A stretch of 64,000 bases of DNA from the NCBI GenBank assembly GCA_043228905.1, contig JBHGNT010000005.1, forward strand, positions 12,028,001 to 12,092,000, written 5' to 3'. Under the pieces are notes generated by a model, which had not been told where the DNA came from, ran no database searches, and saw nothing but the letters and a program-made list of their open reading frames with translations. Positions 1,557 through 49,768 of this stretch are shown here, piece after piece. The stretch is from Azolla caroliniana (Eukaryota > Plantae > Polypodiophyta). A program made the position numbers and the translations under genes. The stretch's first letter is position 1. Each line of letters begins with the position of its first letter.

Positions 1557-1567
1557 TGGCACGCCTG
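1557..1567 (+). promoter_or_regulatory. Primer binding site (tRNA-Arg-like) of element A
   Basis: TGGCACGCCTG lies 4 nt after the LTR end and is complementary to a plant tRNA-Arg 3' end (..CAGGCGUG-CCA, recalled from memory). The same motif TGGCACGCTTGGTG occurs at 5281 in element B. Confidence 0.7.
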
Positions 1568-4902: not shown

Positions 4903-7717
4903 CGATGTTGGAACTGCTCAAGGAATATAAGGATGTTTTTGCATGGTCACACGAAGACATGAAGGGGTTGGACCCAAAGTTTTATCAACACAAAATCAAC
5001 TTATCTACTGACAGAAAACCTGTACAACAGCGTCGGTATCGAATGAACCTGAAATTACGCGGCTCGTGTAAAAGAAGAAATTGACAAACTTCTGAAGGCA
5101 GGGTTCATATGACCGGTAAAGCAAGCAACGTGGCTAAGCCCAATAGTCGTAGTGCCAAAGAAAAATGGCAAAATCCGCGTTTGCGTAGATTATCGTAAAA
5201 TGGCAAAATTGCAAAATTGCAAAATCCCGAAGGACTGTGGGTAGATAGTGTTCTAGTCGACAGTACACCGACAACACTTTTGGCACGCTTGGTGATATGT
5301 GATTTCTTGCAGACAAGCAGCAAGGGATGGATGTCTAGCCGTAGGCGAACCAGAGAACCAACCTGGCAAGATTGACCACTAACGAGGTCCATCACACCCT
5401 AGATAGAAGAGCGTACGAACAAAAACCTCGCCTCAACAACCACGAAGTTTCCTTCCAGGACTACAAGGTGGACCCCACACACACCGAACAACGCGACGTC
5501 AAGCAAGAAGCTCTGTCACCACACGGAAATCGTGGTCTTCCCTTGCCAACCGCCACCATAGTGTCCAGAATGGCCTTCTCTTACCCTCGATTCAATGGCG
5601 AAATAGACGTCGTGAGCCACATCCGGTTGTTCCTGAATGTTTGGAATGGTGCAACGGTTTCCAGAAGCTGAAGCTTATGCCTCGAAGATAGCAGAGTTCG
5701 GATTGACTCTGGATGGTCGAGCAATGTGTTGGCACTCTCAGATGGACCTAGAAGCAATGGCAACCTTCGATCAACTGTAATCAACATTCTTGTGGTTTTT
5801 TCATAGGAGGTTACCACAACGAGAAATCATAGGGCAATTCTATACAATCAAGCAATCACGGAGGGAATCTGTCGCAGATTTTAGTCTACGTTTCCAGAGC
5901 CTACGATGGCAGCTTACACAGGCCCCGACAGATGAGGAGGGTAAGGAGACGTTTTTGGCAGCCCTATATCGACCTTTCAGGACGACCCTTAACACGCATA
6001 GTGGGAAAGGGGAAACAACGGATATGGTTATCGAGCGAGCATTACAACTCGAATTGGAAGAGGAAGATGAAGGATTTTCCATGTCATCGTTACGTCAAGC
6101 ATTGCCTCACGACGAGGAACATTGCTTCTGCCAGGCTATTTAATGTACAATCTGCTTAAACTCAGGGCATTCCGCGGTGGAATGCAACATGTGAATGCAT
6201 TGCCCGATTTGCCACTCAAAGGCGCTACAGTGGAACAATGTGATTACAATATGCTTAACAGACCGACACCCGTCGTACGACGCATGGAACCACAGTGACA
6301 ATATTGCAGGAATGGTCAAGAACGGTAGGAGGATCACTTTCGGTATGCAAACTGATATCAGCGTAGAGAGCGCCCATTCCGAAATCGCCGTAACAGCGAC
6401 CCATATTCCGAGGAAGAAGATCGGGAGGATGACGAATATAGGAATAGTAATCGGTATAATCGAGGGGGGCGTCGTTACGACAATCGCCGTTCGGCAAATA
6501 ATCGAGGGGGATTCAACGGGCCTCGCTCACATGGAAACAACCGACAATATAGGGACCAACAACGTTATGATGAGAGTTCGGAGGATGACCGGCGTCATGA
6601 GTCACGCCGGGACCAACGTCAACCACCCCGGAATAACAGGAGAATGCAGCAAAATCGGGAGGAGCAAGCTGCACCTGTGGATACGAATACACTGCCAATA
6701 GTGGAAAGAGGAGAGTCCAGTGTACATTGATTTGTATGCCAACAACCCGGACATTAGGCGACGCAGTGCCCACGCCGCAAAGGCAAAGAGGTGGCCGTGA
6801 ATACAATCGTGGCAGAAGTAAAACAGGTCACCACACGGCAACAAGCAAAGAACGCGGACTGGGCTAAACAAGATGAGATACGCAAAGCAGCCAAGGACTG
6901 GGTAGAAAAAGCAAAATCTGCAAATGTGGAGTGTATGAAGCAGGAGTCCGCACACACCAGATCGCCAATAGAGGAGGACACGGGATCACCGGACTCCATA
7001 TGGCAAGCATTGGTCGCCCACGAGATAACAATGAGCATGAAGAAGCTTCTCCGACTAGTACCACAATTCCGCTAGGCGGTTGAAAATCGCATGACGTGCA
7101 TACCTAGAGTAGAAGTTTCGGCAAATTTTGCGGAGACTTGTACTGATCCAACAGTCGTCGATCATCACAATCCAGCCATTAAGCTGGTATTACAAGGACA
7201 AGAAATCATGGGATGTATCATTGATGGGGGATCAGGTGTCAATGTCATTAGTATGACCACATGCGCACGATTGGGAATTACAGACTGGGAAGCGTGCCCT
7301 TTTTGGCTCTAAATGGCCGACACCTGTTCTGTTAGACCATTAGGGTTGATTCGGAAATTAGAGATTGTTGTTGGTGGCCATCACTTCGAAATATCGGTGG
7401 TTGTACTCGCATTAGACGCCCCGGGAGCATACCCAATATTGCTTGGCAGGCTTGGTTACGCTCGACCAACATAAAACAAAACTGGCAGCATAATTGCATT
7501 AGTTTCCGATGATGACGGAGCAAAATCCGCGTAACTACCCAGGAAACGACACCACTCACCAAGGGCATAACACCATTATACGTGGAAGACATAAATATGC
7601 TAGGAGTGGAGGATACGGAGTTGGAAGCATACCTTGATGATCACCCACGGGTCGTCCCATTATTCGAAATTGACATAATATAGATTGCCGCGGAATATGC
7701 CTCCACTACGGCACTGT

Positions 7718-8784
7718 CGTGAAGATCCGTCACTACGTGCGGATCGTGAGGTGGAACCGCCGGGGTTCTGGACCGGAAGGAATCGAAGTTTGCACTAGGT
7801 TTAGCGAGAAAATCCTTAAGATAGATTGAAAGAGAGAGAGAATGATATGACGAAAAAGAGATATTGAGATAAAGATTGAACTTTTAACTTTTAGATTTAA
7901 GAGAGAAGATACATCAACAATAGGATTACAAGTTTCTTATTTTTCACAAATGTTTCATTAGTCTCTTCTTGCTTGATTCCTCCACTCTTTTATAGATGCC
8001 CCCATGCATATGATGTATGTGAGGGTGCAAGACATGCACGTAATGCATTAAATGCATGTTTGCCATGTCATCATCTAAGCCCTCATGTATAAGAATTTAC
8101 ATGTAAAATGATCAAAGTAAGACTTTTGAAGATATGATTTGGCTTAGTGGTAAGCCTATTGACTTTTAACTTGGAGGTGCAAGGTTCAAGCCTTGCTCAC
8201 ATCCCTTTTAAAACACAAAATACTACTAGGCTTTTGGTCTTGTATTTACACCGAAAATCTTCAAAACACCATGCACCGCGCGATCAACCGACCGATATGT
8301 CTGTCCGGTCCGGTTCAATCCGATCCCGATTCGATCTTGGTCGTCGCGTCGCTCAATCCGTCCGGTCGGCCAAAACCTTTACAAGTAATTAGGCCACACC
8401 CATTCATCCGGTTAATTTAGCTCAAGTCACCTTGAACATTCTATGATTCACTCATAGACACAAAGTAATAGATTTTGGCCCTGCTTATATACTCTGAGAT
8501 CCTTATTTATCCTGTCTATGCGGGATATCTCGTAGTTTTGTTTTTTCTCTTCTTCTTCGCAAACTTCATACCCACATAACTTGCCACTTAGTTGTTTGTT
8601 TCTTATGTGGTAAAGTGTATTTGAAAGCTCTTGAAGACCTCCATCTTTTTGTACCAAGATATTAAACTAGTATAAAATAGTATCTTCACTATTATTGTTT
8701 CATGTTGTGTGTGAAGAACCACACTCGATTTTGTACATTCCTCGCAATTTTCACACCGTTGCCGAAAATCTCGCAATTTTCACA
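7718..8784 (-). mobile_element. Solo LTR related to the Trp-primed Gypsy D LTR, inserted in pol of element B
   Basis: Termini CGTGAAG...TTTTCACA (TG changed to CG) and 4-bp TSD CTGT/CCGT (7714-7717 / 8785-8788). The host frame TTAP-LKEEA is restored on removal. Same organisation as the D LTR (TATA on minus at ~7990, CATGCA cluster, tRNA-like box). The right junction is duplicated (8741-8790). Confidence 0.7.
8140..8196 (+). promoter_or_regulatory. tRNA(Lys)-like A-box/B-box cassette in the solo LTR
   Basis: TGGCTTAGTGGT ... GACTTTTAAC ... GCAAGG-TTCAAG-CCTTGC. Confidence 0.6.
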
Positions 8785-11700
8785 CCGTTGAAGGAGGAGG
8801 CATGCGAACTGGACCCAGAATCGATCATGGAGTTAAGTAGAGCACGTGCTATGTTCAAAAGGGAAATGGAAATCTTACGGCGTGTCACCGCCTCAGCATT
8901 AGAGGAAGTCAATGTCGGAACAACGACGGATCCTCGATTACTGTCGATTGCAAAAGACTTATTCCCAAGTCAGAAGGTGGCAATGATAGCACTGCTCAAA
9001 GCATATAAGGATGTCTTTGCATGGTCCCATGAAGATATGAAAGGGTTGGACCCAAAGTTTTATCAACACAAGATCAACTTAGCCACCGACGCGAAACCTG
9101 TACAGCAGCGACGATATCAAATGAACCTAAATTATGCATGCGGCTTACATGAAAGAGGAAATTGACAAACATCTCAAGGCAGGATTTATCTGGCCAATAA
9201 AGCAAGCTACATGGCTAAGCCCGATAGTTGTAGTGCCAAAGAAAAATGGCAAAATCTGCATTTGCGTAGATTATCACAATTTAAATGCCGTGACAATCAC
9301 AGATGCGTTCCCTTTACCCTTTACTGACGGCGTACTACATGCGGTCGCAGGCTGACATGTACAATTTTTTAGACGGCTTTAGCGGGTACAATCAGGTACG
9401 CATGCATCCTGACGACCAAGAAAAGACTACGTTCGTCATGGACTGGGGGGTTTACGTAGCAGTGGTCATGATGTTTGGGCTAAAAACGGTGCCAACTACT
9501 TTCCAGCGAATGATCACACAGATTTTTGGGGAGTATATACCTGCCTTTATGCAAGTTTTTCTTGATGATTTCGCGGTATATGGAATAGGAGCCAAACATT
9601 TGGCCCATCTCCGACTCTGTTTGGAACGTTGTCATACTTCAAGCCTAAGGTTGAACCCAACAAAGTGTGCATTTGGCGTTACCAATGGAGCCCTCCTTGG
9701 CCACATCGTAAGCAAGAAGGGAATAACAGTGGATCCTAAGAAAATGACAGCGATAATTGAAGCAAAAACTCTGACTATTGCCAAAGCGCTAAGCCGTTTT
9801 TTGGGGCAAATACACTGGCATAGCCGTATGTTACAGTATTTGGTGGATTTCGCTACCCTGTTACACGCCCTCGTGCATCGCACACCCTTCAAGTGGATGG
9901 CAACTGAAGAAAAAACGTACGACACACTCAAGATAATGTGCCTATACAAAAAGCCGGCATCATAATCGATACTTTCAAAGGGCGCATTGTCGATTGTGGT
10001 GTTGGGAATGATATAGAACGAGAGGCATTGGGAATGATATACAACATCAACAAATTCAGGCATTATTTACTAGGACGAAAATTTATACGTTTCACGTAGA
10101 TCACACGACGTTATTGTACTTGATGGAAAAAGCAGGCGATGACAGGGAAGCTGGCTAGATGGATGCTACTACTCCAGGAGTTCGACTTCGTAATCCAACA
10201 TTGGCTAGGTACGCAACATGCAGTAGCGGATTTTTTAAGTAGAATGGATAACGGGGAAAATGCACGGAAGGGTGACGACGACTTTCCCGACGCTTGCATT
10301 CTACGGGTCGTGATGATAGCGTCAGGGGAAGAGAATTTTTTTTCGGATCGTTGGTTGATGGAAATGACGTACTTTCGGACCACGGGAATGCCACCGCCAC
10401 AACTAAGGATGGATGAAAAGAAGCGATTGGTTGTCTGTAGCCGTAACTTTTGCCTGGTCGAAGGAGTCCTTTATCACAAGGGCAACGATGGCATCTGGCG
10501 ACGCGAGATACGCTAGGATGAGAAGGAAGCCGTCTTGCGCGAAGCACACTGCGATACGGCAGGGGGACACTATGTGGGAGATGTTATGACCAGAGAAATA
10601 TGGCAAGTAAGTCTATGGTGGCCCACCATGCAAAAAGACACACACCTTTATTGCAGGTAGTGCGATCTATGTCAACGATTGGGTCAGCCCACGGAGGGCG
10701 CGAGGATGCCACACCAACCCATTCTTCCGTTGGACCCATTCCAGAAGTGGGCTCTTGATTTTGTTGGTCCTTTTAAGCCGACAACAGCACGAACAAGCAA
10801 TAGATATATTCTGGTAGCCACAGACTACTGTACTAAGTGGGTGGAGGCAAAGGCGCTACGAGACAACACGATGGCATCAATGGCGAAATTTCTTTATGAA
10901 TGCATCTGGTGCCATTTCGGCTGCCCCATTCAGCTCATCAGTGATCAAGGGAGCCATTTTTTGAATTCAGTCATCCACGAGCTCACACACCATTACGCAA
11001 TTGTTCATAAGAAAAGCACGTCATACTATCCACAGGCGAATGAACTAACAGAGTTTACGAACAAAATCTTGCAGACGATACTGAAGAAGATTGTGAATGA
11101 GAATAGAATGGATTGGGATACTAAATTGCACAGCGCCTTGTGGGCGTATCAGACCAGTTACAAGACTAGCATATAGTCTACACCGTTTCGGTTGGCATTT
11201 GGGTTAGAAGCCGTAATGCCCATTCTGCGGATTCAAGTACGAGAATGACTAGCAGAAGGCCAGTCCGAGCAGCTACGGTTACAACAACTCCTTGAATTAG
11301 GCGAAGCTCAGGTACGTAGTATGACCATACTTGAGCAGGAATTGAGACGGCGTAAAGCATTTGTCGATCGACATCGGGTCACGCGGGAGAAGGACTTTGT
11401 AGTCAGGAAGGCCGTGTTGGTCTTTCAAACACACATGGGCCAAATGCCAGGAGAGTTGCGGTTTCGCTGGACGGGACCATATTGGATAGTTGCAGCGGAA
11501 AAAGGCACTTTCCAATTAGGGACCCTCGCTAGAGAGATACTAAGCCAAAAAGTGAATGGATTCAGGCTAAAATCTTATCTGGGACCTACGCCACCAAACC
11601 CATTTCACGCCGTAGATGACGCGGCTGAAGGGTCCCCCGATTAATTAATATCTGGGACCTACTTGTAATATAGTGTAACAGTAATATTCTACTATACCGT

Positions 11701-12340
11701 TGTCGCGTTACTACGTGCGTGTGTGGAGAAACGAGGCGGGACCACCGGGGTCTTGAACCGAAGAGCAGGTGATAGAAGGGGAAAGAGAAGGAGAGAGACG
11801 CCCGGTCACGTATGAGCAAAGAAACACAGGGGCGTGGCCCGTCAACACAGAAGACGCGAATGGACACAGAGACAGGGAGAGACAAGTGTTTGTATATTAA
11901 CGAATAACAAGTACACAACAGAACGCGCGAGCGGCTACAACCGAATAGGCCGGCGAACAAATGTCGATGCCTGTTCGTCTGCGCACGAAATGGGGATAGG
12001 ATGGAGGTGCTGCCGGAAGCACACGGGCGTTCCTCGAAGCAGCGCGAGCCTCCCGAAACTTGCAGAGAAGAGCAACAGAGAACAGACAGAGGAGAAGCGT
12101 TTGGTTCCGGTCCGACAACACTTTGTCCTCCTCAATGCGTGATCCCTTCTCCCTGCGTCTCCCTCTCCTTTATAACGTCAAGAAGGGAGCTGTCTCCCTC
12201 ATTTACTTCCTACCTACCGAATCTAACTACCCCGGATCTCTCTCTGTACCTAATTCTCTATTATATACACTAAGAGCGCACACACGTGAAGGGCCGGTTC
12301 ATGTGCGCTATTCACCGATTGCGCCAGGGGACGGTTTTCT

Positions 12341-13762
12341 TCACGACATCCGCCCCCACCTAACTGCGCATCCACCGGTATGCGCCAAAATTGGTTTCTG
12401 GTTGGAGAAAACCGGTCTGGGTTCCGTTTCTTCGTCCATCGGTTCGCCCTCCGTTTCGGATTGTTCGTCTTCGCTGTCCAAGCCTCTTAGATCCGGTTCG
12501 TCGTCGTGGCGTTTCTTGAACGCTTTGACCCGCTTCCCTGCTACCGGCATTGCCATCCTCGTACCGTCGAGTTCCGCCAGGTGATACGTCCCGTTTTTGT
12601 TGACGCTCGTTACCACGTAAGGCCCGAACCACCGCTTCGCGAACTTCCGTGTTGCTCGGTGCTGGTTGTCGAGGCTGCTGTCGTAGACTAGCACCCAGTC
12701 GCCTTCCTCGATTTTCTTTGGTCAGAGCCGGTGCGTTCGGTCGAACCGGGCTTTGTTCTTCATCCTCGTCGCCCGAAGTCTCTCCGCCGCTCGTTCCACG
12801 TCCTCTGGCCTCCGCTCGAGCTGCCGTATACGCGCCGCTAGCAGTTCTTCCCGACTCATTTCGTCACTCCAGTCTACTGTCGCCCAAGAGGAGATCGTCT
12901 GTTCTATCGGCATGATCGGCTTCTGTCTGAACATGAGCTTTGACGGCATGAACCCGGTTACCGAACTGTGCGTTGTCCGGTCCGCCCACAAGGCGTAAGG
13001 TAACAGCCATGGCCAGTTCCTGACCTGGTCTCCGCATGCCCAAACTAGCGCTTTGATGATTGGCCCGTGCCCGCGCTCTACCTTCCCGTTTGCCTCCGGA
13101 TTGTATGCTGTGGTGAGCGAGAGCTTGACCCCCAACCAGTTGAACAGCTCCTCGGCCTCTTCGGCATCCAACTCTCCGCGGTCAGCCACGATCTTTCCGA
13201 CGCACCCGTACCGGCATATCACGTCCTCGATTAGGAACCGACACACGGCCGCGGTCGTTTTGTTCTGCAGGGCTCGGCCTTCCACCTGGTTCGTCAGGTC
13301 CTCCCGCGCCAGCACCAGATATCGCATCTGTCCTACGCCCATCGGCATTGTCACCAAATCTACCATCCATTTGAAGTGGATGGCCGGAGGGTATGTGGGG
13401 TGAAGCTCGTTCTGATGTCGGACTATGGAGTGCATTTGACAGCTCTCACAAGTTGTCACGAACGATGCACGTCCCGGTATAGTCCCGACCACCAGTACTT
13501 CCCCTTCAGCTTCTCGAACGTGGCCCACGTCCCACGGTGCCCAGCCCAGGGGCTGTCGTGGTAGGCCTTCAGCAATTCCTCCTATTCCTCCTTCGTCGCC
13601 ACTACTCGGAGCGGGATGCCGTTCCTCTTCTTCGGGTGCTTCCACAAGTATCCGTCCCGGAGAAAGAACCGGTACGCTTTCTTCCGGATCCGGTTGGCCT
13701 CGTCCCTTGTCCACGATGCGTCTGGCATCATTGTCCTTAAGAATCCCCCAATCTGCAGCCAC
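12341..13762 (-). pseudogene. Integrase of element C (frameshifted pieces)
   Basis: CESCQ zinc finger, VDLV / VADRGE / VERGH catalytic core, and GPY motif WFGPYVV. Confidence 0.85.
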
Positions 13763-15114
13763 TCCCCGTCGTACTTGCTCTCGTTGAAATCGTTAAGTGC
13801 TAGAGTGCTCCCCCCCTCAGTTGACACGTAAGCCGCCTCGAAGAAGTCTACGCCGACTTCCTCGTCCTTCGAAACCATGCCGCCCTCGTCGTTGAATCGC
13901 GCCCTCGAAAGCATGTCGGCCATGGCATTGTCTTTCCCGGAAATGTGTCGTATTTCTGGATCCAGGGACTTGATGTACGCTATCCACCTGAGCATCGCCA
14001 GGTCCGGGGTTGCGCATCCGGAAACCATGCCGAGAATCGGCAGGCAATCCGTCTCGATAATCACCTCTGTCCCAATCAGATAGTCTTTATCGGCCTTTAC
14101 CGCCGAAACGATACCCCAGAGTTCGCGTTTAACCTGGGCGTATCCTCGCTGTCGCTCGCTGAGGACCTTCGTGCCGAACCGGATTGGGAACCGGATGCCG
14201 TCCTTGTCTTCTTGGTTGACGACCCATCCGATCCCGGTCGGACTCGTATCTACCGTTATGTAGATGGGAGTGCCTTTCTCGTAGACAGCCTTCTGGAGTG
14301 CCGGAGCCGCAGCAAGAGCCTCCTTCATCTTTCGCACCGTCTCCGTATGCTCGTCTCGCCACTCGAATTTTCGCCCCTTTTTTAGCAACCCGTATAGGGG
14401 CTCGGCAACGTGGGCATAATGTGGGATCCATATGTGGTAGAATGCGCATGCTCCCAAGAACCTCCGTACCTCCGTGACCGAGTTACAGTCGGGCTTCATT
14501 GCGGAGATGGCTTCCACCTTTGTTGGAGACGGTTTACGGCCATACGGTCCGCATAGATGTCCGACGACCATGATCTCTGATTGCCCGAAGGCCGATTTTT
14601 CCCCGGAGAAGGTGAGCCTCGCGTCCTCTAACCTTTCCAGCACCCTCTTGCAGTCGTCAATGTGTGTCGCCACGAATTTCCGGCATCCGTCCGGTCCGAT
14701 TGTTTCGTCCTTTTCCTCCACCGGACATCCCTTGATTGGGATGTCATCCAAGAATGGCATGGTGATGTCCGGGATACAATCCCTCAGCACCTTGTTCATC
14801 GCATTCACCATGTGGGCCACCGAGTTCGTCCCTCCCTGTGGCAGGGTACACATCCGCACTAGGCCGAGAGGAGTCCGCATCGTCGTAATGTCTCTGCTTT
14901 CTACGGCTAGTTGGAACTGATCGTACCCCGAGTACAGATCACCGACCGAGTAGATCGACCTTCCGGCGAAGGCCTCCACGAACTTGTCTATCGTTGGTCC
15001 GATTCCTGCGTTCCGAATGGTCACTCTGTTGACCGGTTGCAGGTCTTGAATGAAGCGCAACGCCCCGTTCTTCTTCGGTACGGTAAACCACTGGTTCGAG
15101 GATGCCCATATCAA
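13582..15114 (-). pseudogene. pol: Reverse transcriptase / RNase H of element C
   Basis: Motifs DLYSGYDQ, LPQG, PFLDD, VDTSPTGIG, ETDC and DNAMADMLSR. Confidence 0.9.
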
Positions 15115-16555
15115 CTTTCTGCCTTAATAGCTGCATCAGCTCCGGGATGTGAGCTCTCGGTACCGAAATTGGTTTGAGATTCCACGACACATGCGGTACC
15201 GTGAATATCACCATCGGCTTCACGACTGCCGGGTCTACACACCCGATCTCTCCCGGCGAGAATGCGAAGGCTTTCCCGTGCCTTCCGAGCATTCTCCGAA
15301 ACCGGTCTTCTTTCGCCAGCAGTAGGAACCCGCCCCCACCGACCTTGAGCTCCCGTAGCGTTCTGTCGGTGAAGGCGTGCCCTATGCAGGCCGGATCTCG
15401 TAAGCTGGGGTCCGACGCGACCCCCTTGATTCGTAACTCGCTGCCCTCCGGTAAGGGTGCCGCGACTGGCCTTACCTTCCGGTCCACAGTTTTGTACTTC
15501 GTGTTAACCCGGGCCGTCCGATCCGACTCGAGCCCTCGACTGAAGTTCGCGATGACTTCATACATCTCTTCTGAACAAACCAGTATTGTCCGGTCCTCTT
15601 TAAGGCCCTCTCCGACCACCTCTCGTAGTATTCCGAAGGTATCGTCGAAGGAGACCGCCTCCACGGCTCCGTTGATTTCCTCGCTGGGCCCGAGAACTCC
15701 GCACGCCCGAAGTCGCTCTTCTGCCCTTGTCTTTTCTCGGCCTACGACGCCAACTATCGTACACCCTCCGTTGTCGGAGAAACAAAACTTCCTACTTATG
15801 GTACAAGGTTTCTTCGGTTTCGCTTCTATCGTACATTTGTGGGGTTTTCCCGGAGTGTCTGGACTGTCGCGGCCCCACGCCTTGGCAGCCCTCTCTAAAA
15901 ATCCTCTCGGTTCTCGCCACTGAGGGACTCGCCTGAGGGACTCGCGGTTTCGCTCGTGGTTCGGTCGCACCGTCAGGAACTGGACCGAATGACGCCCGTC
16001 CTGACTTTTGACCCTCGCGTAAGCCGACCCGTTGTCCAGCACCTTGGTCTCCATTCGCGCCGCCGTAATGTACAGTTCCCCTAGAATGACCGGGTGCGAG
16101 GACGTTTCCTGCACAAAGAAGTGTTGGTCTATTTCGACGTCGCCGATCTTGACTCGCACGTTTGGGCAGGCCCTGTGTAGTTCCTCGGTGGCTCGTGTCG
16201 CCGCCCGTATCTTCCACCCGTGCTTAGTGTTGATTGGCCATTTCCCCTTTTTGTAGAAGTCCATGGACATCAGGTTTATTTCTGAACCGTGGTCCACCAT
16301 CGCCACCACCGGTTCCTGAACATCTCCGATCTTCACCGGGGTTTCCGTGGTCGCTCGGGCCCAGTGTGGCCTCGAATAGTGGCTCTCCGCCCACTCGTCT
16401 TCCAGCGCCATGTCCTCTATGTGCGCCGTCCGCACTTCCACTGGCCTTTCTGGTTCTGCCTCTGTCGACAACCTCTTCCTCTTCACCAAGTCCATGATGA
16501 AGTCGTGGAACTCCTTCTTGGCTATCCCGAGCACCTCTAGCAACGACAGTTCCAC
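14939..16555 (-). pseudogene. Protease and N-terminal pol of element C
   Basis: Aspartic protease motif AMVDHGSEINLMS and KYKTVDRKVRPVAAPLP; frameshifted relative to the RT ORF near 15100. Confidence 0.8.
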
Positions 16556-16588
16556 CTTGCTGTCGAGGATTCGTTCTTCCAGGACCTT

Positions 16589-18061
16589 TCATAGGTCCGT
16601 GGTCCTTTTGATCTCCGTGCCCAAACGGTATCCGCCCTTCTTATGGTTATCCCGGGCACTGGACTCACTGGCCTCGATCCGTTTCGGCCCGAATCGGGTT
16701 TCGTATCTCTGTGAGGGTCCGGCCCCTCTGTTCTTACCTACCCGTTTGTCTTCAACCAGAGCCTCGTAGTTCTGGCAAGCTGCTTCGACGAAACCCGTCT
16801 TTTCTTCGACCGGGTCACTCCATCCGGTTACCTCATGGACCCGCTTCTCCGCGCGGTCCGCCTCGTCTCTCTTCAGTCGGGCACCGGCGAGGCCTTCCAG
16901 CACCGTCAGCCGGAATTCGGCTTTGCTCTCCTTCCGGGCCCCGCTGCCCCCGACCCGAATACCGGCTGACGTTGAGTAGTGGACGGTCTCCGCGTGCCGG
17001 GCTGCCGCCTCTTCCATCAGCCTTTTCATTCCTCCTCTCCCGTCGTTTCGGTTCAGGGCCCTCCGGGTATCGCTGGCGTGCACCCGACCTTCCCATAGGT
17101 ACACTACCCGGCTTCTCAAAGCCTCCATAAAGTCCCCGCAGTCTTTCCAGATGTGGCCGACCTCGTCGCACCACATGCACCTACTTCCTGCCGGAGGCCG
17201 TCGGTCACGAGCCTGATCGCCGCCTTCCCTCCGAGCCTGGGCGATTTGGAGATCCTTTACCGCTCGTGTCAACTCCTCCAGAGCTGTTCCCCCGGACGAG
17301 CCTCTGATCACGCCGGTCGAAGGCGAACCGGTTTTGAGCCACTCCCGGGTCTCTTCCCTTTGTGCCCGCGGTATCGGTTTGAGCTTCCTTGCTGCGACAG
17401 GTGCCGCCCCGGTCGCCTCTGTATCAACCCACTCCCACCGTTTGTCAAAACGGCCGCAGACTCTCTTTACCGCGGCCCAGTCGGTCGTCAGCCCGTCTTC
17501 GGTTTCCAATAAGGAGCCAACTTGCCCCCGATCCCGTGTGTCAACCGATTTGACAAACAGTAGGACAGGACTTGTGTCCAGAACAGTCTGATCGAGCGCC
17601 GAAAGGCGCGCAAAGCGTTCCTCAAACTCCCAGAGGATTACCGACGTATTTCTTCCTTTGTTGGGGGAATCCACCCACTCCATGAAGCTCCGCTTCGAAA
17701 GTCGAAGCGCGTCATCCAGCCCGTATTTCTCCAGGAGCCGTCCTTCGAACTCTTCCCAGGTCCGGCTCTCCACCCGGACCTCGAGTACATCCGCATGGAT
17801 GCCTGGCATCGCCACTCGAGGGAATCCGGCAAGACGCCTCTCTTCCGGAATATCCCTCATCAACATCTCCGCCCGATAGGACACCAAATAACTCATGGCA
17901 TCCTTTCCACTGAACCGGCCGATCATACCGACGATCGCCTCAATAGCCCTGTCAAGGGCGCCGGTGCCCTCGCGCGCGCTCACTATCCGGTCCACGGCCG
18001 AAGCCATGGCCTCTGCAAGATCCGACCCCCTCATCTTCTGCTCCTTTGCCGCCTGTTTCAC
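16589..18061 (-). CDS. gag: Gag of element C (zinc knuckle CMWCDEVGHIWKDC), ending at a premature stop
   Basis: 490-aa ORF starting at the PBS, homologous to the element D gag (CMWCDSIDHQKKDC). Confidence 0.8.
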   Translation of the reverse strand: MKQAAKEQKMRGSDLAEAMASAVDRIVSAREGTGALDRAIEAIVGMIGRFSGKDAMSYLVSYRAEMLMRDIPEERRLAGFPRVAMPGIHADVLEVRVESRTWEEFEGRLLEKYGLDDALRLSKRSFMEWVDSPNKGRNTSVILWEFEERFARLSALDQTVLDTSPVLLFVKSVDTRDRGQVGSLLETEDGLTTDWAAVKRVCGRFDKRWEWVDTEATGAAPVAARKLKPIPRAQREETREWLKTGSPSTGVIRGSSGGTALEELTRAVKDLQIAQARREGGDQARDRRPPAGSRCMWCDEVGHIWKDCGDFMEALRSRVVYLWEGRVHASDTRRALNRNDGRGGMKRLMEEAAARHAETVHYSTSAGIRVGGSGARKESKAEFRLTVLEGLAGARLKRDEADRAEKRVHEVTGWSDPVEEKTGFVEAACQNYEALVEDKRVGKNRGAGPSQRYETRFGPKRIEASESSARDNHKKGGYRLGTEIKRTTDL

Positions 18062-18074
18062 GTCGGGTTCACCA
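18057..18074 (-). promoter_or_regulatory. PBS complementary to tRNA-Trp (element C)
   Basis: TGGTGAACCCGACGTGAA; the identical 18-mer occurs at 26101-26118 in element D. It matches the plant tRNA-Trp 3' end (..TTCACGTCGGGTTCA-CCA, recalled from memory). Confidence 0.85.
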
Positions 18075-18717
18075 AAGATGTCGCGTTACTACACGCGTGC
18101 GTGGAGAAACGAGGCGGGACCACAGGGATCTTGAACCGAAGAGCAGGTGATAGAAGGGGAAAGAGAAGGAGAGAGACGCCCGGTCACGTATGAGCAAAGG
18201 AACACAGGGGCATGGCCCGTCAACACAGAAGACGCGAATGGACACAGAGACAGGGAGAGACAAGTGTTTGTATATTAACGAATAACAAGTACACAGCAGA
18301 ACGCGCGAGCGGCTACAACCGAACAGGCCGGCGAACAGATGTCGATGCCTGTTCGTCTGCGCACGAAATGGGGATAGGATGGAGGTGCTACTGGAAGCAC
18401 ACGGGCGTTCCTCGAAGCATCGTGAGCCTCCCGAAACCTGCAGAGAAGAGCAACAGAGAACAGACAGAGGAGAAGCGTTCAGTTCCGGTCCGACAACACT
18501 TCGTCCTCCTCAATGCGTGATCCCTTCTCCCTGCGTCTCCCTCATTTACTTCCTACCTACCGAATCTAACTACCCCGGATCTCTCTCTGTACCTAATTCT
18601 CTATTATATACACTAAGAGCGCGCACACGTGAAGGGCCGGTTCATGTGCGCTATTCCCCGATTGCGCCAGGGGACGGTTTTCTTCACGACACCGTTAAAA
18701 AAGAAGAAGAAGGGAAG

Positions 18718-19173: not shown

Positions 19174-22100
19174 ACGGACGGGTTCGACATGCCATGGCAC
19201 TGTCCCATAGGCGTTCCAGGTGCTGTCCGCCGGACATAACGCGGGATAAATTAAAATATTGTAAGAAATGAATGTAACGGTTCACACGAGGAGCATAATC
19301 GACGAGACGCCCTGTGTATTTAAAGGGCAGAAATCCTGTGTAAAGGGTTAGCGTTGTTTTGAGAGTTCTTTTCTAATATAGTACTATCTCCCCTGATTTA
19401 CTATGTAAGTGCCGGTGTGATAATTAGTGAGGGTTATATTCTGTTAAGAAGTGCATAACTGGAAACGTAAGGTTAAGCGTGTTAGCGTAGTTATGCATCG
19501 TTCCTTCGGTTGAAGCTGGGAACCTTCACGCCCTGTAGATACGTACCATTTAGTAACAAGTGAGGTACGAGCGTACACAGTGCGCCTCTGTATCCCTTGT
19601 AACGCAACCCCTTGATGCCTACCCCGAAGGACTGTGGGTAGACAGTGTTCTAGTCGATAGTACGCCGACAACATTCATCGATAGCATACTAGACGTAGTC
19701 GCAGGCCATGACATGTACAATTTTCTAGATGGCTTTAGTGGATACAATCAGGTACGTATGCATCATGATGACCAAGAGAAGACTATGTTCGTCACGGTCT
19801 GGGGGGGCTTATGTCGCGGTGGTCATGATGTTTGGGCTCAAGACAACGCCGACAACTTTCCAGCAAACAATCACAAAGATCTTTGGGGAGTATATGCCTT
19901 CCTTTATGGAAGTTTTCCTTGACGACTTCGTGGTATATGGAATAGGAGCCGAACATTTGGCCCATCTCCAACTCCATTTGGAACGTTGTCGAACTTCACG
20001 TCTAAGCTTGAATCCAACAAAATGCGCATTTGGCGTTACTAGTGGAGCTATCCTTGGCCACATCACATCGTAAGCAAGGAAGGGATAGCGGTGAATCCTA
20101 AGAAAATTACGGCAATAATTGAAGCAAAAACTCCAACTACTGCCAAAACACTCAGTCATTTTCTAGGACAAATACGATGGCATAGGCGTCTGTTACGGTA
20201 TTTGGCGGATTTCACTACCCCATTACACCCCGCCGTACATCGGACACCTTTCAAGTGGATGGCAATTGAAGAAAAAACTTACGAAGCACTCAAGATAATG
20301 TTAACACAGGCACCGGTCGTATAACCACTAGATTGGACGAAACCTTTCCATGTCTTTGTGGATGCTTCAGATATAGCAATACGCAGCGCATTGATGCAGC
20401 TCACGGAGCAAAATCGGTATAGGCCGGTCTATTACGCTAGTCGCAAGCTATCTACTACCAAACGAAATTACTCCACAACAAAACGGGAGGCGTTGGGAAT
20501 GATATACAACATCAACAAATTCCGGCATTACCAGGTAGGGTGAAAATTTACGTTTCACGTAGATCACACGGCGCTATTGTACATGGTGGAGAAATAGGCA
20601 CTCACAGGGAAGTTGGCCAGGAGTTCGACTTTGTAATTCAGCATCGGCCAAGTACGCAACACGTTGTAGCGGATTTTTTAAGTAGAATGGATAACGGGGA
20701 AAATATGCGTGAGAATGACGACGACTTTCCTGGCGCTGACATTCTACAGGTCGCGACGATAGCGTCACGGGAATAGAAATTTTTTCCGGATAGTTGGTTG
20801 AAGGATATGACGTACTTTCTGACCACGGGATTGCAACCGCGGCAACTCAGGACAGACGCAAAGAAGCATTGGTTGTCCGTAGTCGTAACTTTTGCCTGGT
20901 TGAAGGGGTCCTTTATCACAAGGGCAGCGATGGAATTTGGCGATGCGTGATATGCCAGGATGAGAAGGAAGCTGTTTTGTGTGAAGCTCACTGCGGAACG
21001 ACAGGGGGACACTATGTGGGCGATGTTACGGCCAGAAAAATATGGCAAGCAAGCTTATGGTGGCCAACTACGCAAAAAGATGCGTATCTATACTGTTGAC
21101 AGTGCGATTTATGTCAACGATTGGGGCAACCCACGGAGGTCGCAAGGATGCCACATCAACCGGTTCTGCACTTGGAGCCATTCCAGAAATGGGGTCTTGA
21201 TTTTGTTGGTCCCTTTACGCCAGCTGCAACACGGACCAGCAATAGATATATTTTGGTGGCCACGGATTACTACACTAAGTGGGTAGAAGCAAAAGAATGA
21301 CGAGACAATACGGCAGCATCCATGGTGAAATTTCTTTACGAATACATTTGGTGCCGTTTTGGCTGCCCCATCAAGCTAATCAGGATTCTGAATTCGGTCA
21401 TCCTGGAGATGACACACCATTACGCCATGGTTCATAAGAAGAGCACACCATATTACCCGCAGGTGAATGGGCTAGCAGAATCCACGAACAAAATCTTACA
21501 TACCATATTGAAAAAGATTGTGAACGAGAATAGAACAAATTGGGATACCAAACTACACAGTGCCTTGGGGGCATATCAGACGAGTTAAAAAACTAGCATA
21601 TAGTCCATGCCTTTCCGGCTAGCATTTCGGTTAGAGGCCGTAATGCCCATCGAATTCCAGGTACCCAGTTTGCGGATTCAAGTACGAGACCGGCTATCAG
21701 AACTCAAGTCCGAGGAAATATGGCTACAACAACTTCTCGAACTAGGTGAGGCGCATATCTGCAGTATGGCCATACTTGAGCAAGAGCAGGTACGACGTAA
21801 AGCATTCGTGGACTGGCATCAGGGCTAACGAGAGAAGGACTTTGTAGTAGGAAAGGCCGTATTAGTTTTTCAAACACCCACGGGTCAAATGCCAGGGAAA
21901 TTACGGTTCCGATGGACGGGGCCGTACTGGATAGTTGGAGCGGAGAACGACACTTTTCAATTAGGAACTCTCGTCGGGGAGTTAATTCGACAGAAAGTGA
22001 ATGGGTTCCAATTAAAACCTTATCTAGGACCTACGCATGCAAACCCGTTTCACGCCGTCACTGACATGGCAGAGGGGCCCATACACTAATTAATAGCTAG

Positions 22101-22551
22101 GGCCCTCTTCTAATATAATTAATAGATGGGGCCCATTTCCGTGTTTCATTCCCATTCTTGTGATTCAAGACTCGGTTGTGGTTGAGCAATATTCCACGCC
22201 ATTCTTATCGATCTGGTATCAGAGTGAACAACACAAGAAATGGAAGAATCGTTCAACGACATGTTCAAGCTCACCGGCTCCAACTACTCAATGTGGAAGT
22301 CGAAGATGAGGGATATGCTAATAGTTAAAGATCTTTGGTTGCCGGTTCAGTTCGGGGACAAGAGACCAGACAAGATTGACGCCACAGTGTTGGACGTGAT
22401 GCACATGAAGACGACGGCATACATCTGGTGTTTCATCGACATGAGCCTGTACAACAACTTCAATGAAGAAAGTAAGGCTCACAAAGTCTGGGAGAAGATC
22501 GGCATCATGTTCCAGAACAAGAATGTCGTTAATCGGGTTTTTGTATTCCGA

Positions 22552-25500
22552 TATCGGGGTAGTTGTGGTTCATTCGGCGAAGTCACGGGGACTAAGGTTA
22601 AGGGGGAGTTGAAGGAACTTTTATAAGGCTTGCGCACAAATGTTAGGAAGATTAAGGATAAAAAGAATAAGAGTTTAAAGTAATGTGTGTGAGAGAGAGA
22701 CAAGTATAGAAAAAGCATAGAGACAATGTATGATTCAAGAAGCAAGATAGAGACAAAGTATGATTTAAGGAATTAAAGTATATGATATGAACATGATGTA
22801 TATTACGAATACAAGATTTTACCAACTTTACAATGCTTGATAGCAAGATGAACCCTTTCTCTACCAACTCTTGATTCGAACCCTTGACTCCAACTTGGAA
22901 ATGAGAGGTTCTCCACCCAATGAGCTAGTCTTCTTTACTTGATTGTATTATTTTCTCACTCTCTCCTGATTGATCCCTTTTGTTTTCCTTTCCCCTCTTT
23001 TTATAAGTATTGACATGCATATGGTAATGTGTAGGAGCATGGCATGCATGTAATGCATGCATTACATGTGATGCATGATCGCCATTTGGCGCACATGCAT
23101 TGCATGTGATGCATGATAGCCATCATGCTCATTTGAGCTCCCATGTATGAAAATATATATGGGATAAGTATAATTATGGATATAACTTTAAAACAAATGA
23201 CCTAGCTTTGTGCTTGATATACAAGGTTGAGGGTTCAAGTCCCTCAATTTTACTTAATACAATATTTAAGTTTATTCTTATATAGTGAAGCACATTCTTG
23301 ACAACATTTCTAAAAACAAATAGCCTACCCTAGTGGTATATACATTGTGCTTGGTTTATAAGGTTGTGGGTTCAAGTGTTTGAAATATTATTGAATTCAA
23401 TATTTAAATTTATTTTTATGTCGTGAAGCAAATCCTTCACGACACCCACCCCCTCCTATTTTCATCCCTTGTATTGTTTCCGGAGTAAACACATGTCCTA
23501 CCTTTCGTGGGTCTCTGATCATTGGCTCTGTGGCTGCTTCTTTGATTGCCTTTTCACTATCCCCTGGAAGTGGAGCAGCAATAGGACGAACCTTCTTCTC
23601 CACTGTCTTGTATTTTGTTAGTACATGTGCTTCATGATCCTTTCGAGCAACTTCTTCAATGACCTCGTACATCTTGATTGAATGGACAGGAACTTGGATT
23701 TCGTTGTCTTCTTCCATTGCTTCCAAATGAGTTATTGTATCTTCAAAACTTAATTCTTCAAACATATCCTGAATTTCTTCATCATCCTCTATTAATCCAG
23801 AACACTTAAAGTACTCGAAAGCATTTTGTATTTTATTATTATTTACTTTTAGTATAAAAGTAGCACCATTAGATGAGATTGTACAAGGAATATCTTTATT
23901 TACATTATTATTTATGGGGTTTTCTTTTATGTTCGGGCTATCACAGCCCCTACCTGTAAAAGCCCTATCTAAAAATCCTGGGAAAACTCTTCATCCATCT
24001 CTTGAATTGGATGTTCCCTCAAGCATTCTTTGTTTCTTTCATGGTTGGGCCTCACGGTTAAGAATTGGACATTCTTTCTTCCATCTTGACTCTTGATTCT
24101 CGCGAAAGCCGAACCATCATCAATAACCTTTGTTTCCATCCTCACTGCAGTGATGTAGGGCTGACCAAGGATGATGGGGTAGGTTGATCGATCCTGCACA
24201 AAGAAATGTTGATTCACCGACACATCACCAATTGTTACCTTCACACTAGGACATGCTCCAAATAGATCCTCCGTAGTCTCTGTGGTAGCTCTTATTTTCC
24301 ACCCATGATTCTTGTCGATCGGCCACCGTCCTCGAGCGTAAAATTCCGATGACATCATGTTAATCTCGGATCCATGATCGATCAAAGCAATACATGGAAT
24401 TTGCTGCTCCCCAATTTTTGCAGGTGCCTCCGTTGTTGCTCGAGCCTAATGGTCCCTTGTATAGTGACTCCTATCCCCTTCATGGACGCCAACATCATTC
24501 TGGTTTTTTACACTTGCAGCATTGATGGTGCCACCATACAAATCTTGGAGTGTTGTTGCACACCCTCCTGTAATTTCCTCCGTCACTTGTCTCTTCCTTC
24601 TAATAATATCTATGATAACTTCATGAAATTCTTTCTTTGCTATACCCAACACTTCTCTTAAAGTAAATTCTACCTTACTATTCAGTATTCTTGTTTCTAG
24701 TACCTTTTTTATATCCGTCGTTGTTTCTATGTCTGAGGCAAGCTTGAAAGATGGGCATGTCTTTCCTTTTACTTTATCAGCTTCCTTTGGTTCAGTAGCA
24801 CCCTTTTCCATCTCCCTTCTCTTTTGTTCTCGTGTCTCATGTCTCTTTGTCGGATCAGTTTCCTTAACTCTTTTCCGCTTCTCTTCGACTAGCACATCTT
24901 GTGCATTCACTTGGGCGAATGCTGATAGCGCGTCTACTGGATCATTCCATCCAGTGAAGTTGCGTATTTCATCTCCCGCTCTTTTTAATTCATCCACTCG
25001 AACCTTCCCTTTTCTTGCATAATCCATCACATCTTGCCAAAAGTCAGATCCACCATATGAGTCTTCTATGCGCAACCCTAAGGTTGCCACGGATTGTATT
25101 GCTTGAGTCGTTTCTCTCTCGGCATCTTCCATTAGCTTTTTCATTCCTCCTCGCCCGAAGTTGAGTTGAAGTGGTTGTCGAGTCTCTGTCGAGTGAATCT
25201 TGCCCTCTTGATAGTAGATTTTATTATGATTAAGAGCATCCCTATGCTCTTGACAATCTTTCTTCTGGTGGTCGATACTATCACACCACATACACCTTCG
25301 GACCATTCCACTTCCCTGCCTTGATGAAGTCGAGCTTTGTCCCGATTCTAGCTTCGTCACTTTGATCGACAAGTCTTTCATACCTTTCACCAATTCGTGT
25401 AAGAGTGATTCTTCTACTTTCTTTTCTCCCGACTCGTTCCTTGTTTCTTCATCATTTCTGTCGGGCAACTCCATAAACCATAACTTTCTTTTGCAGAAAT

Positions 25501-27044
25501 GGGCGCACGCCCTTTTCACCTCCTCCCAGTCTTCGGTAAGTCCACTTGGACTATTCTGATCTTCTAAAAGCATTCCCAAGTCCTTCCTATCTTTAATATT
25601 AGTAGCTTGTAGAAACAATATTACTTTATCTGGCACTATTATATTTCTATCTCGAACATTTAGTTGCTCAAATCTTTCCGAAAACTCTTTTAATACTTCC
25701 AAAACACTTAAATGTTTATAAGACTCTACCCAATCCATAAAAGTTCGCCTTGTCATACTTGACATATCGTTGAGGTTGTATTCATTTAGCAATGCTCTTT
25801 CGAAAGTCGCCCATGTCTAATGTTCCCTCTGTAGCTCATGGATCCTTTCTTGTAGCCCAATCGCAGCTATTCGACTAAAGCTATTAATTTTTGCAGCTTC
25901 GTCAACACCATGTTTAAGCATTTCTTCATTATAAATCTTCAGAAATCTTGTTAAATTTATACCTTCGAAGATTCCTACTTGTGCGAGAATATTGTCGACG
26001 ACTTTGTCGATGCTGGCCATCATCCCTTGTTCCCGCATCACTCGTTCCATCATCGTACACATAAGCCTCATTTGCTCCTCCATTTCTCCTCGTCGCCGCC
26101 TTCACGTCGGGTTCACCAAATGTGTCGGGGTAGTTGTGGTTCGTGCGGCGAAGTCGCGGGGACTAAGGTTAAGGGGAGTTGAAGAAACTTAACTTTTAAT
26201 AAGGCTTGTATGGTGATGTTAGAAAGGTTAAGAGTAGCAAGAAGAAGAGTTACGAGTAATGTGTGAGAGAGAGAGACGAGAATAGATAGAAGATAGAGAC
26301 AATATATGATTCAAGAAACAAGATAGAGACAAAATATGATTTAAGAAGGAAGATTGAGACAAAGTATGAATCAAGAAGCAAGAATATTTGATATAAACAT
26401 GATGAAAAAGACAATATTTTACCAACTTTACAATCTTTGATCACAAACTGAACACATTCTCTACCGACCCTTGATTTGAACCCTCGACTTCAACTCTGAG
26501 AGACAAGACACTTCCCCAAATGAGCTAGCTTCTTTGCTTGATAAATTATCTAATTTCTTGCTTTCTCTTCCTTGATTCCTTACCCTATTTTCCCCTTGCC
26601 CCTCTTTATATAAGTGTTGCCATGCATATGGTAATGTATGGGAGCATGGCATGCATGCAATGCATGAGTTACATGTAATGCATGATCGCCATTTGGCGCA
26701 CATGCATTGCATGTGATGAATGATGGCTATGTACGAAAATAGATATGGGATAAGTATAATGATGAAAATGCATTCTAAAATAACTAACCTAGCTTAGTGG
26801 TGTATGCTTGGTGCTTGGTATACAAGGTTGAGGGTTCAAGTCCCTCAATTTTACTTAATACAATATATACCTTCATTCTTATATCATGAAGCACATTTAT
26901 TACACATTTTTACAAATAGATAGCCTAGCCTAGTGGTATGTACATTGTACATCGTTTATAAGGATGTGGGTTCAAGTCTCTCAAATATTATTAAATACAA
27001 CATTTAAGCTCATTTTTATATCGTGAAGCACATTCTTCACGACA
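22552..27044 (-). mobile_element. Non-autonomous Gypsy element D (gag-pro only, tRNA-Trp PBS), nested in Copia E gag
   Basis: LTRs 22552-23444 and 26123-27044, and 4-bp TSD CCGA/CCGG (22548-22551 / 27045-27048). The host frame VFR|KLVRLQY is restored on removal. gag 24446-26083, protease IDHGSEINMMS ~24385; no RT, RH or INT. Confidence 0.9.
26790..26846 (+). promoter_or_regulatory. tRNA-like Pol III A-box/B-box cassette in the D LTR
   Basis: TAGCTTAGTGGT (A box), then GAGGG-TTCAAGT-CCCTC (B box in a perfect T-arm), then TTTT. Further copies at 26926-26982, 23203-23245 and 23326-23380 (+), and 22873-22927 and 26473-26527 (-). Confidence 0.65.
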
Positions 27045-30000
27045 CCGGAAGCTAGTGAGGCTCCAGTACCAGGATGGCTCCAGTATGGCGGAGCACATGA
27101 ATACCTTCCAAGGGCTAATACACCAAGCAACCTCATTGGAAGTACCTCTCGCCGATGAGGTACTCATATTACTCTTGCTTGGTTCCCTCTTGGATAGCTG
27201 GGAGACACTAGTTGTCACGTTGGGCAACACCGGGCCAGAAGGAAAGCAGTTGTCCCTAGCAAGGGTAAAATCAAGCTTGCTAGATGAAGAAGCTTGCCGG
27301 AAGGACCGGGAGTCCGGAACCGATCCGAAGGCCTTGGTCACGGAAGATGACCAAAACCGGGGAGGAGGCCGGTATCGGAGTCCCCAAAACCAGGACAAAT
27401 CGCGGACAAGGTCGAAGTCAAGGGGAGGCCTACTTGCTTCTACTGTGGGAAGCCGAGGAACTTCCAAAAGAACTATTGGCATTTCTGAAAAGAGAAAGAA
27501 ACCAACACTACCGATTCGAAGAAGAGTTCGGACCGGGGAGGCCCGGATTGGAAAGGAACGTCGGCAATTGCGACAAGTGAAGAGGAACTAATGCTCATTA
27601 CCGAGGAGAATGAGTTAAACCTTGTCGGGGATGAGACAACGTGGGTTGGCGAATCCAGAGCGTCATTCCACCTGACACCGGATCGGAAATGCTTCTCATC
27701 CTACATAGCTGGTGATCATGGCTATGTAGGTATAGGGAATGAAGGCACATGCCAAATTATCGGCATAGGAGATGTGTTGTTGACGACATCAACCAGATGC
27801 AAGTTGCTGATGAAGGATGTCCGACGCGTTCCAGAGGTTCGACTGAACCTAATATTAGCCGGTTGGTTAGATGATGAAGGCTACACAGGTATCATCCGGA
27901 ATGGAGTCATGAAGTTCAGCAAAGGGAGCCTAATAGTGGCTTGAGCCTAGAAGGTCAACACATTGTACTTGATAAATGCACGGATACGCAGGGAAGAGGT
28001 GAACGTAGCATCCGACATTGTCGGTGAGCTGTGGCATAAAAGACTATGTCACATGAGTGAGCCGAAGACAATCTCATTCTGGTGAAGGACGTGCAACTTG
28101 AGAAGTGCACTTATTGTCTTGTCGGCAAGAAAAACCAAACCTCCTTCTGGTCAAGACCACCGATGAGACAGAATGCACCACTGGAGTGGGTGCATACCGA
28201 TGTGTGTCAAGTGGACACGAAATCACATGCCGGATTGCAATACTTTGTGACGCTCATAGATGATCACAGCCGGAAGCTGTGGGTCTCACCGTTGAAGACG
28301 AAGGATCAGGTGCTATCCGTCTTCAAGGAGCTCCATGAGAGAGTGGAAAGAGAAATAAACCAGAAGCTAAAGGCAATTTGAGTGGACAATGGAGGAGAAT
28401 ACTTGGGGCAGTTCGAGGAGTACTGTCGGTTGAAAGGAATCCGGCTCGAATTCACCGTGCCGAAAACGCCGGAATTGAACGGCCTGGCTGAACGGATGAA
28501 CTAGATCATGATGGAGAGATTCTGGAGCATGTTGGCACAAGACGTTTTGGGCTGAGGCGCTGACGACGGTGACCTATGTGATAAACAGATCACCCTTAGC
28601 ACCCTTGGAAGGAGACTCACCTCAGAAAGTATGGACCGGTAAAGATGTATCTTACCGGCATCTGAAGGTGTTCGGGTGTCTCGCATATGTGCATGTTGCG
28701 AAGGATAAGAGAGCAAAACTGGATCTGAAGTCCTGGCCATGTATATTCCTTGGATACGACGATGATGAGTTTGGTTACCGGGTGTGGGATTTGGTTGACA
28801 AGAAGGTGTTCTGGAGTCGGGACATAGTCTTCATGGACAACAAGACCATTGCAGAATGGGAGTCGGAGAAGAAGGTGATGAACTCCGGACCATCAAATGA
28901 AAACCGGCTGGAGGGCACAAGGACTTACCCGGTTGAAAACTGGATGACAGTCGACGAACTGGCCGGATACGGACAAGAAACCGAACCGATCGACAAAGAA
29001 AAAGAAGAAGAAGAAGAAGACACCGGAACCAGACAAGATCCCGATTCGGATTCGGATTCGGAACGAACGAAGGAACCGGTTGTAAGAAACCACAGACGAA
29101 GATATCCTTTCCGAGAGAGATGAGCCCCCTGGAGATTTCCGGATGCAGAGCATGTGTTGCTAACCGATGAGGGGGAGCCAAAAAGCTTTGAAGAAGCAAA
29201 GAGGGACACCCACAGCCGCAAGTGGTTGAGTGCCATGCAAGACGAGATGGATTCCCTGCATGAGAACCACACGTATGAATTGACGGATTTGCCGAAGGGA
29301 AAGAGGTCACGCCGGAACAAGTGGGTGTACAAGATAAAACGAGGAGATGCAGGAAACTCACCAAGATACAAAGCCCAGATCGTGGTGAAGGGGTTCCAGC
29401 AGAAGAAAGGAGTGGACTTCGATGAGATCTTTGCCCCGGTAGTGAAGATGACATCCATCCAGACGGTATTGGGCATAGCGGCAAGCATGGACCTTGAGGT
29501 AGAGCAACTGGACGTCAAGACGGCGTTCCTACATTGCGACCTCGAAGAAGAGATCTACATGCATCAACCGGAAGGATTTGAGAAGAAAGGGAAGGAGCAC
29601 CTGGTGTGCCGGCTAAAGAAGAGCTTGTACGGACTGAAGCAAGCTCCCCCGGCAATGGTACCGGAAGTTCGACTCCTTCATGACCGACCAAGGGTACCAC
29701 AAGACGCAGGCCGATCACTGTGTTGTTTGTGAAGAAATTTGATGGAGGAGATTTCCTGATACTCCTCCTGTATGTGGATGATATGTTGATCGTCAGACGA
29801 GACCAAGGCAAGATTCAGATGCTGAAGAAGGCTCTGAACCAAACCTTCTCAATGAAAGCCTTGGGTCCGGCAAGACAGATATTAGGAATGCACATCATCC
29901 TGGACCAGACAAAGAAGCTGTTGTGGTTGTCACAGGAGTACATGACAAAGGTGCTCCAACGGTTCAATATGTCAGAGGTGAAACCAGTCGGATCGAAACT

Positions 30001-41492: not shown

Positions 41493-41570
<78 letters not shown>

Positions 41571-41574
<4 letters not shown>

Positions 41575-49716: not shown

Positions 49717-49768
<52 letters not shown>

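What the first reader, a model, noticed from the sequence alone, without database searches (positions are those of the whole stretch)
7714..27048. Trp-primed Gypsy lineage makes 4-bp TSDs and inserts at CCGN
Seen: three insertions have TSDs CCGT/CCGT (C), CCGA/CCGG (D) and CTGT/CCGT (related solo LTR). Both mismatches are CpG-type transitions, and host reading frames are restored with 4-bp duplications in the two coding cases. Other LTR elements here have the usual 5-bp TSDs. Established: plant LTR retrotransposons mostly make 5-bp TSDs with weak preference. Inference: a CpG/CCG-centred, possibly methylation-guided integrase that steers copies into other TEs without a chromodomain. The sample is only n=3.
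Basis: partly seen in the sequence, partly recalled or inferred. Interest (0 to 1): 0.7.

Follow-up and report, generated by a model that had tools for sequence, protein, structure and literature searches.

The report
Phygy-type retrotransposons inserting at NCGN
Two jumping genes here sit in 4-base target duplications centred on CG, and related copies elsewhere share that CG-centred target; this is the published signature of the moss Phygy lineage, to which they likely belong, so the finding is real but ordinary.

Summary
Partly confirmed, and already described. Element C (11701-18691) has a clean CCGT/CCGT duplication. Element D (22552-27044) has CCGA/CCGG, and the host Copia gag phase fits a 4-bp, not a 5-bp, duplication. 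In related metagenome loci, 19 of 20 outer 5' junctions read NCGN against 4.6% background (p about 1e-24), as do 3 of 4 outer 3' junctions. The motif is NCGN, not CCGN: CCG on either strand occurs in 8 of 19, against 45% expected. Neumann et al. 2019 list exactly these traits for the non-chromovirus Gypsy lineage Phygy: 4-bp TSD (100% of 186 elements), NCGN, tRNA-Trp primer (81%), no extra domain. A tree against labelled Phygy sequences was not possible. The likeliest mechanism is direct sequence and shape readout of a bendable CG step by the integrase. Methylation guidance is untested and not needed.

The parts
11697..11700 (.). TSD copy of element C (CCGT; ACGG on the element strand)
11701..12348 (-). 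3' LTR of element C
12349..12360 (-). polypurine tract of C
   Evidence: same tract precedes LTR starts in related loci
12464..15904 (-). pol of C (RT, RNase H, integrase; no chromodomain), split over three frames
15935..18037 (-). gag region of C (relatives carry DUF4100), with one stop
18057..18074 (-). 18-nt primer-binding site of C, 4 nt from the LTR; tRNA-Trp assignment recalled
   Evidence: its exact complement is an abundant CCA-ending plant small RNA
18079..18691 (-). 5' LTR of element C
18692..18695 (.). TSD copy of element C (CCGT)
22548..22551 (.). TSD copy of element D (CCGA), inside a Copia gag
22552..23444 (-). 3' LTR of element D (terminal base changed)
23445..26062 (-). internal region of D: PPT and gag-type ORF (DUF4100; 38% identical to the L007 gag); no RT, RNase H or integrase, so non-autonomous
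26101..26118 (-). primer-binding site of D, identical to that of C
26123..27044 (-). 5' LTR of element D
27045..27048 (.). TSD copy of element D (CCGG)
7715..8790 (-). solo LTR of the same lineage in a Gypsy gag-pro host; left terminus intact with flank GCAC, right terminus overwritten by a 21-nt internal duplication; TSD unreadable

Best explanation
C, D and the solo LTR are copies of a chromodomain-free Gypsy lineage, likely Phygy, whose integrase likely cuts target DNA with a 4-bp stagger around a central CG by reading sequence and DNA bendability directly. Shown: 4-bp duplications at C and D, CG at the two central positions in 22 of 24 outer junctions of relatives, a shared 18-nt primer site, RT-RNase H-integrase without a chromodomain, and no pol in D. 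Inferred: C-type autonomous elements supply integrase to D-type elements, which share the LTR termini and primer site; the paired active sites bend the target at the pyrimidine-purine CG step, as retroviral integrases with 4-bp staggers do; nesting in other TEs follows from TE-rich, CG-rich neighbourhoods and from selection; mismatched TSDs are later 5mC decay.
For: TSDs and host phase. 19 of 20 outer 5' junctions are NCGN vs 4.6% background; shifting the register by 1-5 nt gives 0, 4, 0, 0, 0 of 20. 3 of 4 outer 3' junctions are NCGN, and both exceptions overall (ATGG, CTGC) are one C-to-T step away. The three D-family junctions (L028, L031, L046) are all NCGN. No chromodomain in three full-length pol ORFs, while the same library found one in the window's chromovirus. 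Published Phygy traits: 4 bp 100%, NCGN, tRNA-Trp 81%. Retroviral sites favour central YR steps, most strongly with short TSDs and largely independent of chromatin (PMC4422553 abstract). Drosophila errantiviruses have sequence-specific TATA, CGCG or ATAT targets (PMC5408687 passages).
Against: No labelled Phygy protein could be obtained, so clade membership is not shown by a tree; TatI also has 4 bp and tRNA-Trp. C is 6,991 bp, below the 7,656-9,968 bp range of P. patens Phygy. A preference of about 92-95% for one dinucleotide is far stricter than the weak retroviral YR bias, so bendability alone is not enough and base contacts must be assumed. The locus junctions are one-sided, so TSD length is measured only at C and D. 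Nearly all loci come from one series of assemblies and may be one or a few species. Nothing here separates methylated from unmethylated CG.
Confidence: 0.8

Rival explanations
1. The integrase, or a host partner, recognises methylated CG and so steers copies into silenced TEs without a chromodomain.
For: TEs here bear a 5mC footprint: 15 of 20 differences between C's LTRs are CG or CHG transitions. 12 of 20 flanks resemble TE sequence. Phygy-into-Tcn1 nesting is the commonest recurrent nested pair in P. patens (PMC6911290 passages and supplement 3).
Against: No methylation data were available and no TE background exists for these genomes. Several flanks are AT-rich and CpG-poor (L008, L029, L066, L070; CpG o/e 0.42-0.56), and the insertion still sits on a CG. 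No methyl-reading domain was found in pol. Strict CG-containing targets occur in Drosophila elements, an insect with almost no CpG methylation (recalled).
Confidence: 0.12
2. A separate lineage (TatI-like, or an unnamed non-seed-plant clade) that shares 4-bp TSDs and the Trp primer with Phygy but is not Phygy.
For: TatI: 4 bp (100%) and tRNA-Trp (75%), n=4. C is shorter than P. patens Phygy. No P. patens protein was among the listed hits; named hits were Riccia and Adiantum.
Against: TatI is defined by a second, archaeal-type RNase H; the three full pol ORFs show one RNase H region only. NCGN is reported as unique to Phygy among the lineages surveyed. C-type pol is only 22-30% identical to the other Gypsy pol sequences in the window.
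Confidence: 0.07
3. The pattern is chance or an artefact of boundary calling.
Against: LTR starts were called by PBS distance and terminal homology, without regard to the flank, and gave 19 of 20 NCGN (p=8e-25). Counting the one ambiguous junction that was dropped (L053) gives 19 of 21.
Confidence: 0.01

Closest known systems
Phygy (Ty3/gypsy non-chromovirus lineage of Physcomitrella patens; Neumann et al. 2019, PMC6317226)
   Same: 4-bp TSD, NCGN target, tRNA-Trp-type PBS, no chromodomain or extra domain, coding region filling the interior.
   Different: C is 7.0 kb against 7.7-10.0 kb; D is a 4.5-kb pol-less derivative; host species not established; clade placement not tested.
TatI (OTA/Tat, Neumann et al. 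2019)
   Same: 4-bp TSD and tRNA-Trp PBS.
   Different: TatI has a second archaeal RNase H in 100% of elements and no reported motif; none was seen here.
Selgy (Selaginella non-chromovirus)
   Same: 4-bp TSD (96%), short, no extra domain.
   Different: tRNA-Ala primer, about 5 kb, no NCGN motif reported.
Drosophila errantiviruses of the ZAM subgroup; prototype foamy virus intasome
   Same: Sequence-directed integrase with a palindromic CG-containing target; central YR preference with short staggers. PFV integrase is the best PDB sequence match of C's integrase piece (E 1.5e-6).
   Different: Distant clades; errantiviruses have env and AGT termini; the retroviral preference is weak, not near-absolute.

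Membership tests
Phygy | RT-RH-INT phylogeny groups with Phygy reference elements | not testable with these tools
   The REXdb fasta and element table were too large to read; no labelled Phygy sequence in supplements searched.
Phygy | 4-bp TSD | tested here: met
   C and D, 2 of 2 readable cases; third case unreadable.
Phygy | NCGN target motif | tested here: met
   22 of 24 outer junctions in related loci, plus C and D.
Phygy | tRNA-Trp primer-binding site | tested here: inconclusive
   Perfect 18-nt complement of a CCA-ending plant small RNA. The Trp isotype is recalled; no call confirmed it.
Phygy | No chromodomain and no archaeal RNase H | tested here: met
   Pfam on three full pol ORFs of relatives and on C's pieces. 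The aRH test is indirect: one RNase H region only.
Phygy | Length 7.7-10.0 kb | tested here: not met
   C is 6,991 bp. The range is descriptive, from one species; the authors call size of little use for classification.
TatI | Additional archaeal RNase H domain | tested here: not met
   Single RNase H region in L007, L069 and L074 pol.
Chromovirus (Tcn1) | C-terminal chromodomain | tested here: not met
   Absent; found in the window's own chromovirus ORF 48649-49290.

The most novel reading that the evidence does not exclude
Phygy-type integrase is a methyl-CpG-sensing integrase: it reads a 5mC-marked VCGB site ([ACG]CG[CGT]) in its target groove and so nests into silenced TEs with no chromodomain or tether. 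This would be the first DNA-methylation-encoded targeting rule for a plant LTR retrotransposon, and it would run across mosses, liverworts and ferns.
Probability: 0.1. Interest if true: 0.65.

Novelty: new member of a known kind. Interest (0 to 1): 0.13.

Why it matters
As it stands it re-finds a published lineage trait and adds two small points. The NCGN rule holds across many families of this lineage, including pol-less D-type elements. T before the CG (or A after it) is avoided (2 of 38 half-sites vs 34% expected, p=3e-5), although a similar T-left/A-right depletion is already reported for plant TSDs in general. The open question worth asking is how an integrase reaches near-absolute CG specificity and whether 5mC matters; a moss with methylation mutants makes that testable.

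Tried and rejected
No whole genome is held, so no genome-wide logo could be built. Viral contigs hold no relative. Laying Logan contigs on C's LTR showed thousands of short matching contigs in four runs but printed no usable outer flanks. Empty host sites for the three insertions were not obtained, which leaves the solo LTR's TSD open. Host-protein homologs did not settle it: the window paralog and P0121 have 7 residues across the site, the CCGT reading implies 8, and the other homologs are too divergent. Three readings remain for the solo LTR (CCGT with a 3-nt loss on the left; a decayed GCGC with the right copy lost; another NCGN), and none was chosen. The Atlas search with a Riccia homolog gave generic Gypsy clusters only. 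A link to the fungal Ylt1 clade is recalled from motif resemblance and was not tested; the Ylt1 papers gave no usable TSD data (passages). The P. patens RLG2 transcript was visible for 400 letters only and uninformative. A weak TcdA_TcdB Pfam hit on a host integrase (E 0.004, below cut-off) was treated as chance. Earlier scan findings: none matched. Rows dropped before counting: of 42 LTR starts in loci, 22 preceded by the PPT (inner junctions or collapsed assemblies, including the degenerate L053) and, separately, 3 duplicate rows from a query trimmed 2 nt off; L006 (subset of L007); two loose 3' candidates (L005, L021) that homology did not recover as outer junctions.

Full report
Verdict. 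The central observation is real for two of three insertions and generalises well, but it is the published signature of the Phygy lineage. The specific motif (CCGN) and the methylation idea are not supported.

Anatomy. The window is a nest of LTR retrotransposons. Element C (11701-18691, minus strand) has LTRs 96.7% identical, an 18-nt primer site, gag and an RT-RNase H-integrase pol without a chromodomain. Element D (22552-27044, minus strand) has LTRs about 85% identical, the same primer site and a DUF4100 gag 38% identical to a C-type gag, but no RT or integrase. It sits in a Copia gag. A solo LTR of the same lineage starts at 7715. Named protein relatives of C's pol come from Riccia and Adiantum at 34-72% identity, and the window also holds a chromodomain-bearing Gypsy. 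A non-seed plant is therefore the likely source; this is inference.

The three junctions. C has CCGT on both sides. D has CCGA and CCGG; each host flank was translated on its own, and the 4-mer falls in the same codon phase on both sides, which fits 4 bp and not 5. D's mismatch is in CHG, not CpG, context. The solo LTR does not give CTGT/CCGT. Its terminus lies at 7715 by homology, so the flank is GCAC. Relatives start with TGTCGTGAAGATTTTCGG, whereas here the first eight bases are replaced by a copy of an internal tract, and the CCGT at 8785 lies within that copy. A CCGT target is possible but needs two later events; a decayed GCGC target fits as well. Host homologs did not decide it.

A larger sample. 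No genome was available. The pattern does not involve the target site. Of 42 LTR starts located, 22 followed the polypurine tract and were dropped; 20 were outer junctions. Nineteen of 20 read NCGN, against 4.6% of 4-mers in the same flanks (p=8e-25); the exception is ATGG. Shifted registers gave 0, 4, 0, 0 and 0 of 20. Of 128 LTR 3' ends, four in loci were outer junctions: ACGT, ACGT, CCGC and CTGC. CG thus sits at -3/-2 on one side and +2/+3 on the other, the symmetry of a 4-bp stagger. First bases among the 19 were A 6, G 6, C 5, T 2. CCG on either strand occurred in 8 of 19, against 45% expected (p=0.82), so CCGN is not the motif. T-first or A-last half-sites were rare (2 of 38 vs 34%, p=3e-5). 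Caveats: junctions are one-sided, and almost all loci belong to one assembly series.

What is known. Neumann et al. 2019 (PMC6317226; passages, section 9 and supplementary table 5 read) state that Phygy elements prefer NCGN, and list 186 elements with 4-bp TSD (100%), tRNA-Trp PBS (81%), mean 8.6 kb and no extra domain. Jedlicka et al. 2019 (PMC6911290; passages, section 8, one supplement passage) find 4-bp TSDs dominant in Phygy, a GC-rich centre in 4-bp TSDs, and Phygy-into-Tcn1 as the commonest recurrent nesting. Phygy is also reported from a liverwort (PMC12885004 passages). The two supplements holding reference sequences could not be read, so phylogenetic membership is untested. The Trp isotype of the primer is recalled; calls show only that its complement is an abundant CCA-ending plant small RNA filed as miR894 (PMC5846777 passages).

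Mechanism. Shown: 4-bp duplication, central CG, no chromodomain. Inferred: the integrase reads the site directly. Retroviral sites favour flexible central YR steps, most strongly with short staggers and largely regardless of chromatin (PMC4422553 abstract only), and Drosophila errantiviruses use fixed TATA, CGCG or ATAT targets (PMC5408687 passages). The near-absolute CG choice here implies added base contacts. D-type elements would borrow this enzyme, since their three sampled junctions follow the same rule. Methylation guidance is not excluded: TEs here carry a 5mC footprint (15 of 20 LTR differences in C) and 12 of 20 flanks are TE-like. But CpG-poor flanks are also hit at CG, there is no background for TE density, and no methylation data were at hand. 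Searches for Phygy and for NCGN with integrase and CpG terms (listings only for most papers) showed no study testing methylation dependence; the library lacks most subscription journals.

Score. New member of a known kind; interest 0.13. The boldest open reading, a methyl-CpG-sensing integrase, has about 10% probability and would deserve 0.65.

Noticed in passing
window 18057-18074 and 26101-26118: The primer site is the exact complement of the abundant plant small RNA annotated as miR894. That RNA is likely a 3' tRNA fragment able to target this lineage.
   Followed up: partly
window 8741-8790: The solo LTR's terminus is replaced by a 21-nt copy of an internal tract, consistent with a microhomology-driven template switch.
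   Followed up: yes
L049 and L054 outer flanks: Two insertions lie inside gag or pol of their own lineage (self-nesting).
   Followed up: partly
window 982-22117: The host Gypsy occurs as several partial units (1514-3971 like 5228-7708; 9330-11672 like 19684-22117) separated by LTR-like stretches, suggesting a tandem or self-nested array; pol is only 22-30% identical to C-type pol.
   Followed up: no
window 43056-49858: Chromodomain-bearing Gypsy (Tcn1-like by recall) nested in opposite orientation in a copy of its own family, with a 5-bp TSD.
   Followed up: partly
window 37454-39620: Decayed hAT-like transposase region (recalled from motifs; Pfam gave no clear hit).
   Followed up: no
window 33448-34023 and 41550-42960: Two 96% identical LINE-like reverse transcriptase fragments in opposite orientation; the second is bracketed by long (CT)n tracts.
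   Followed up: no
window 22552-27044; L028, L031, L046, L094, L109: D belongs to a multi-copy family with its own LTR type; the window copy keeps gag but lacks pol.
   Followed up: partly
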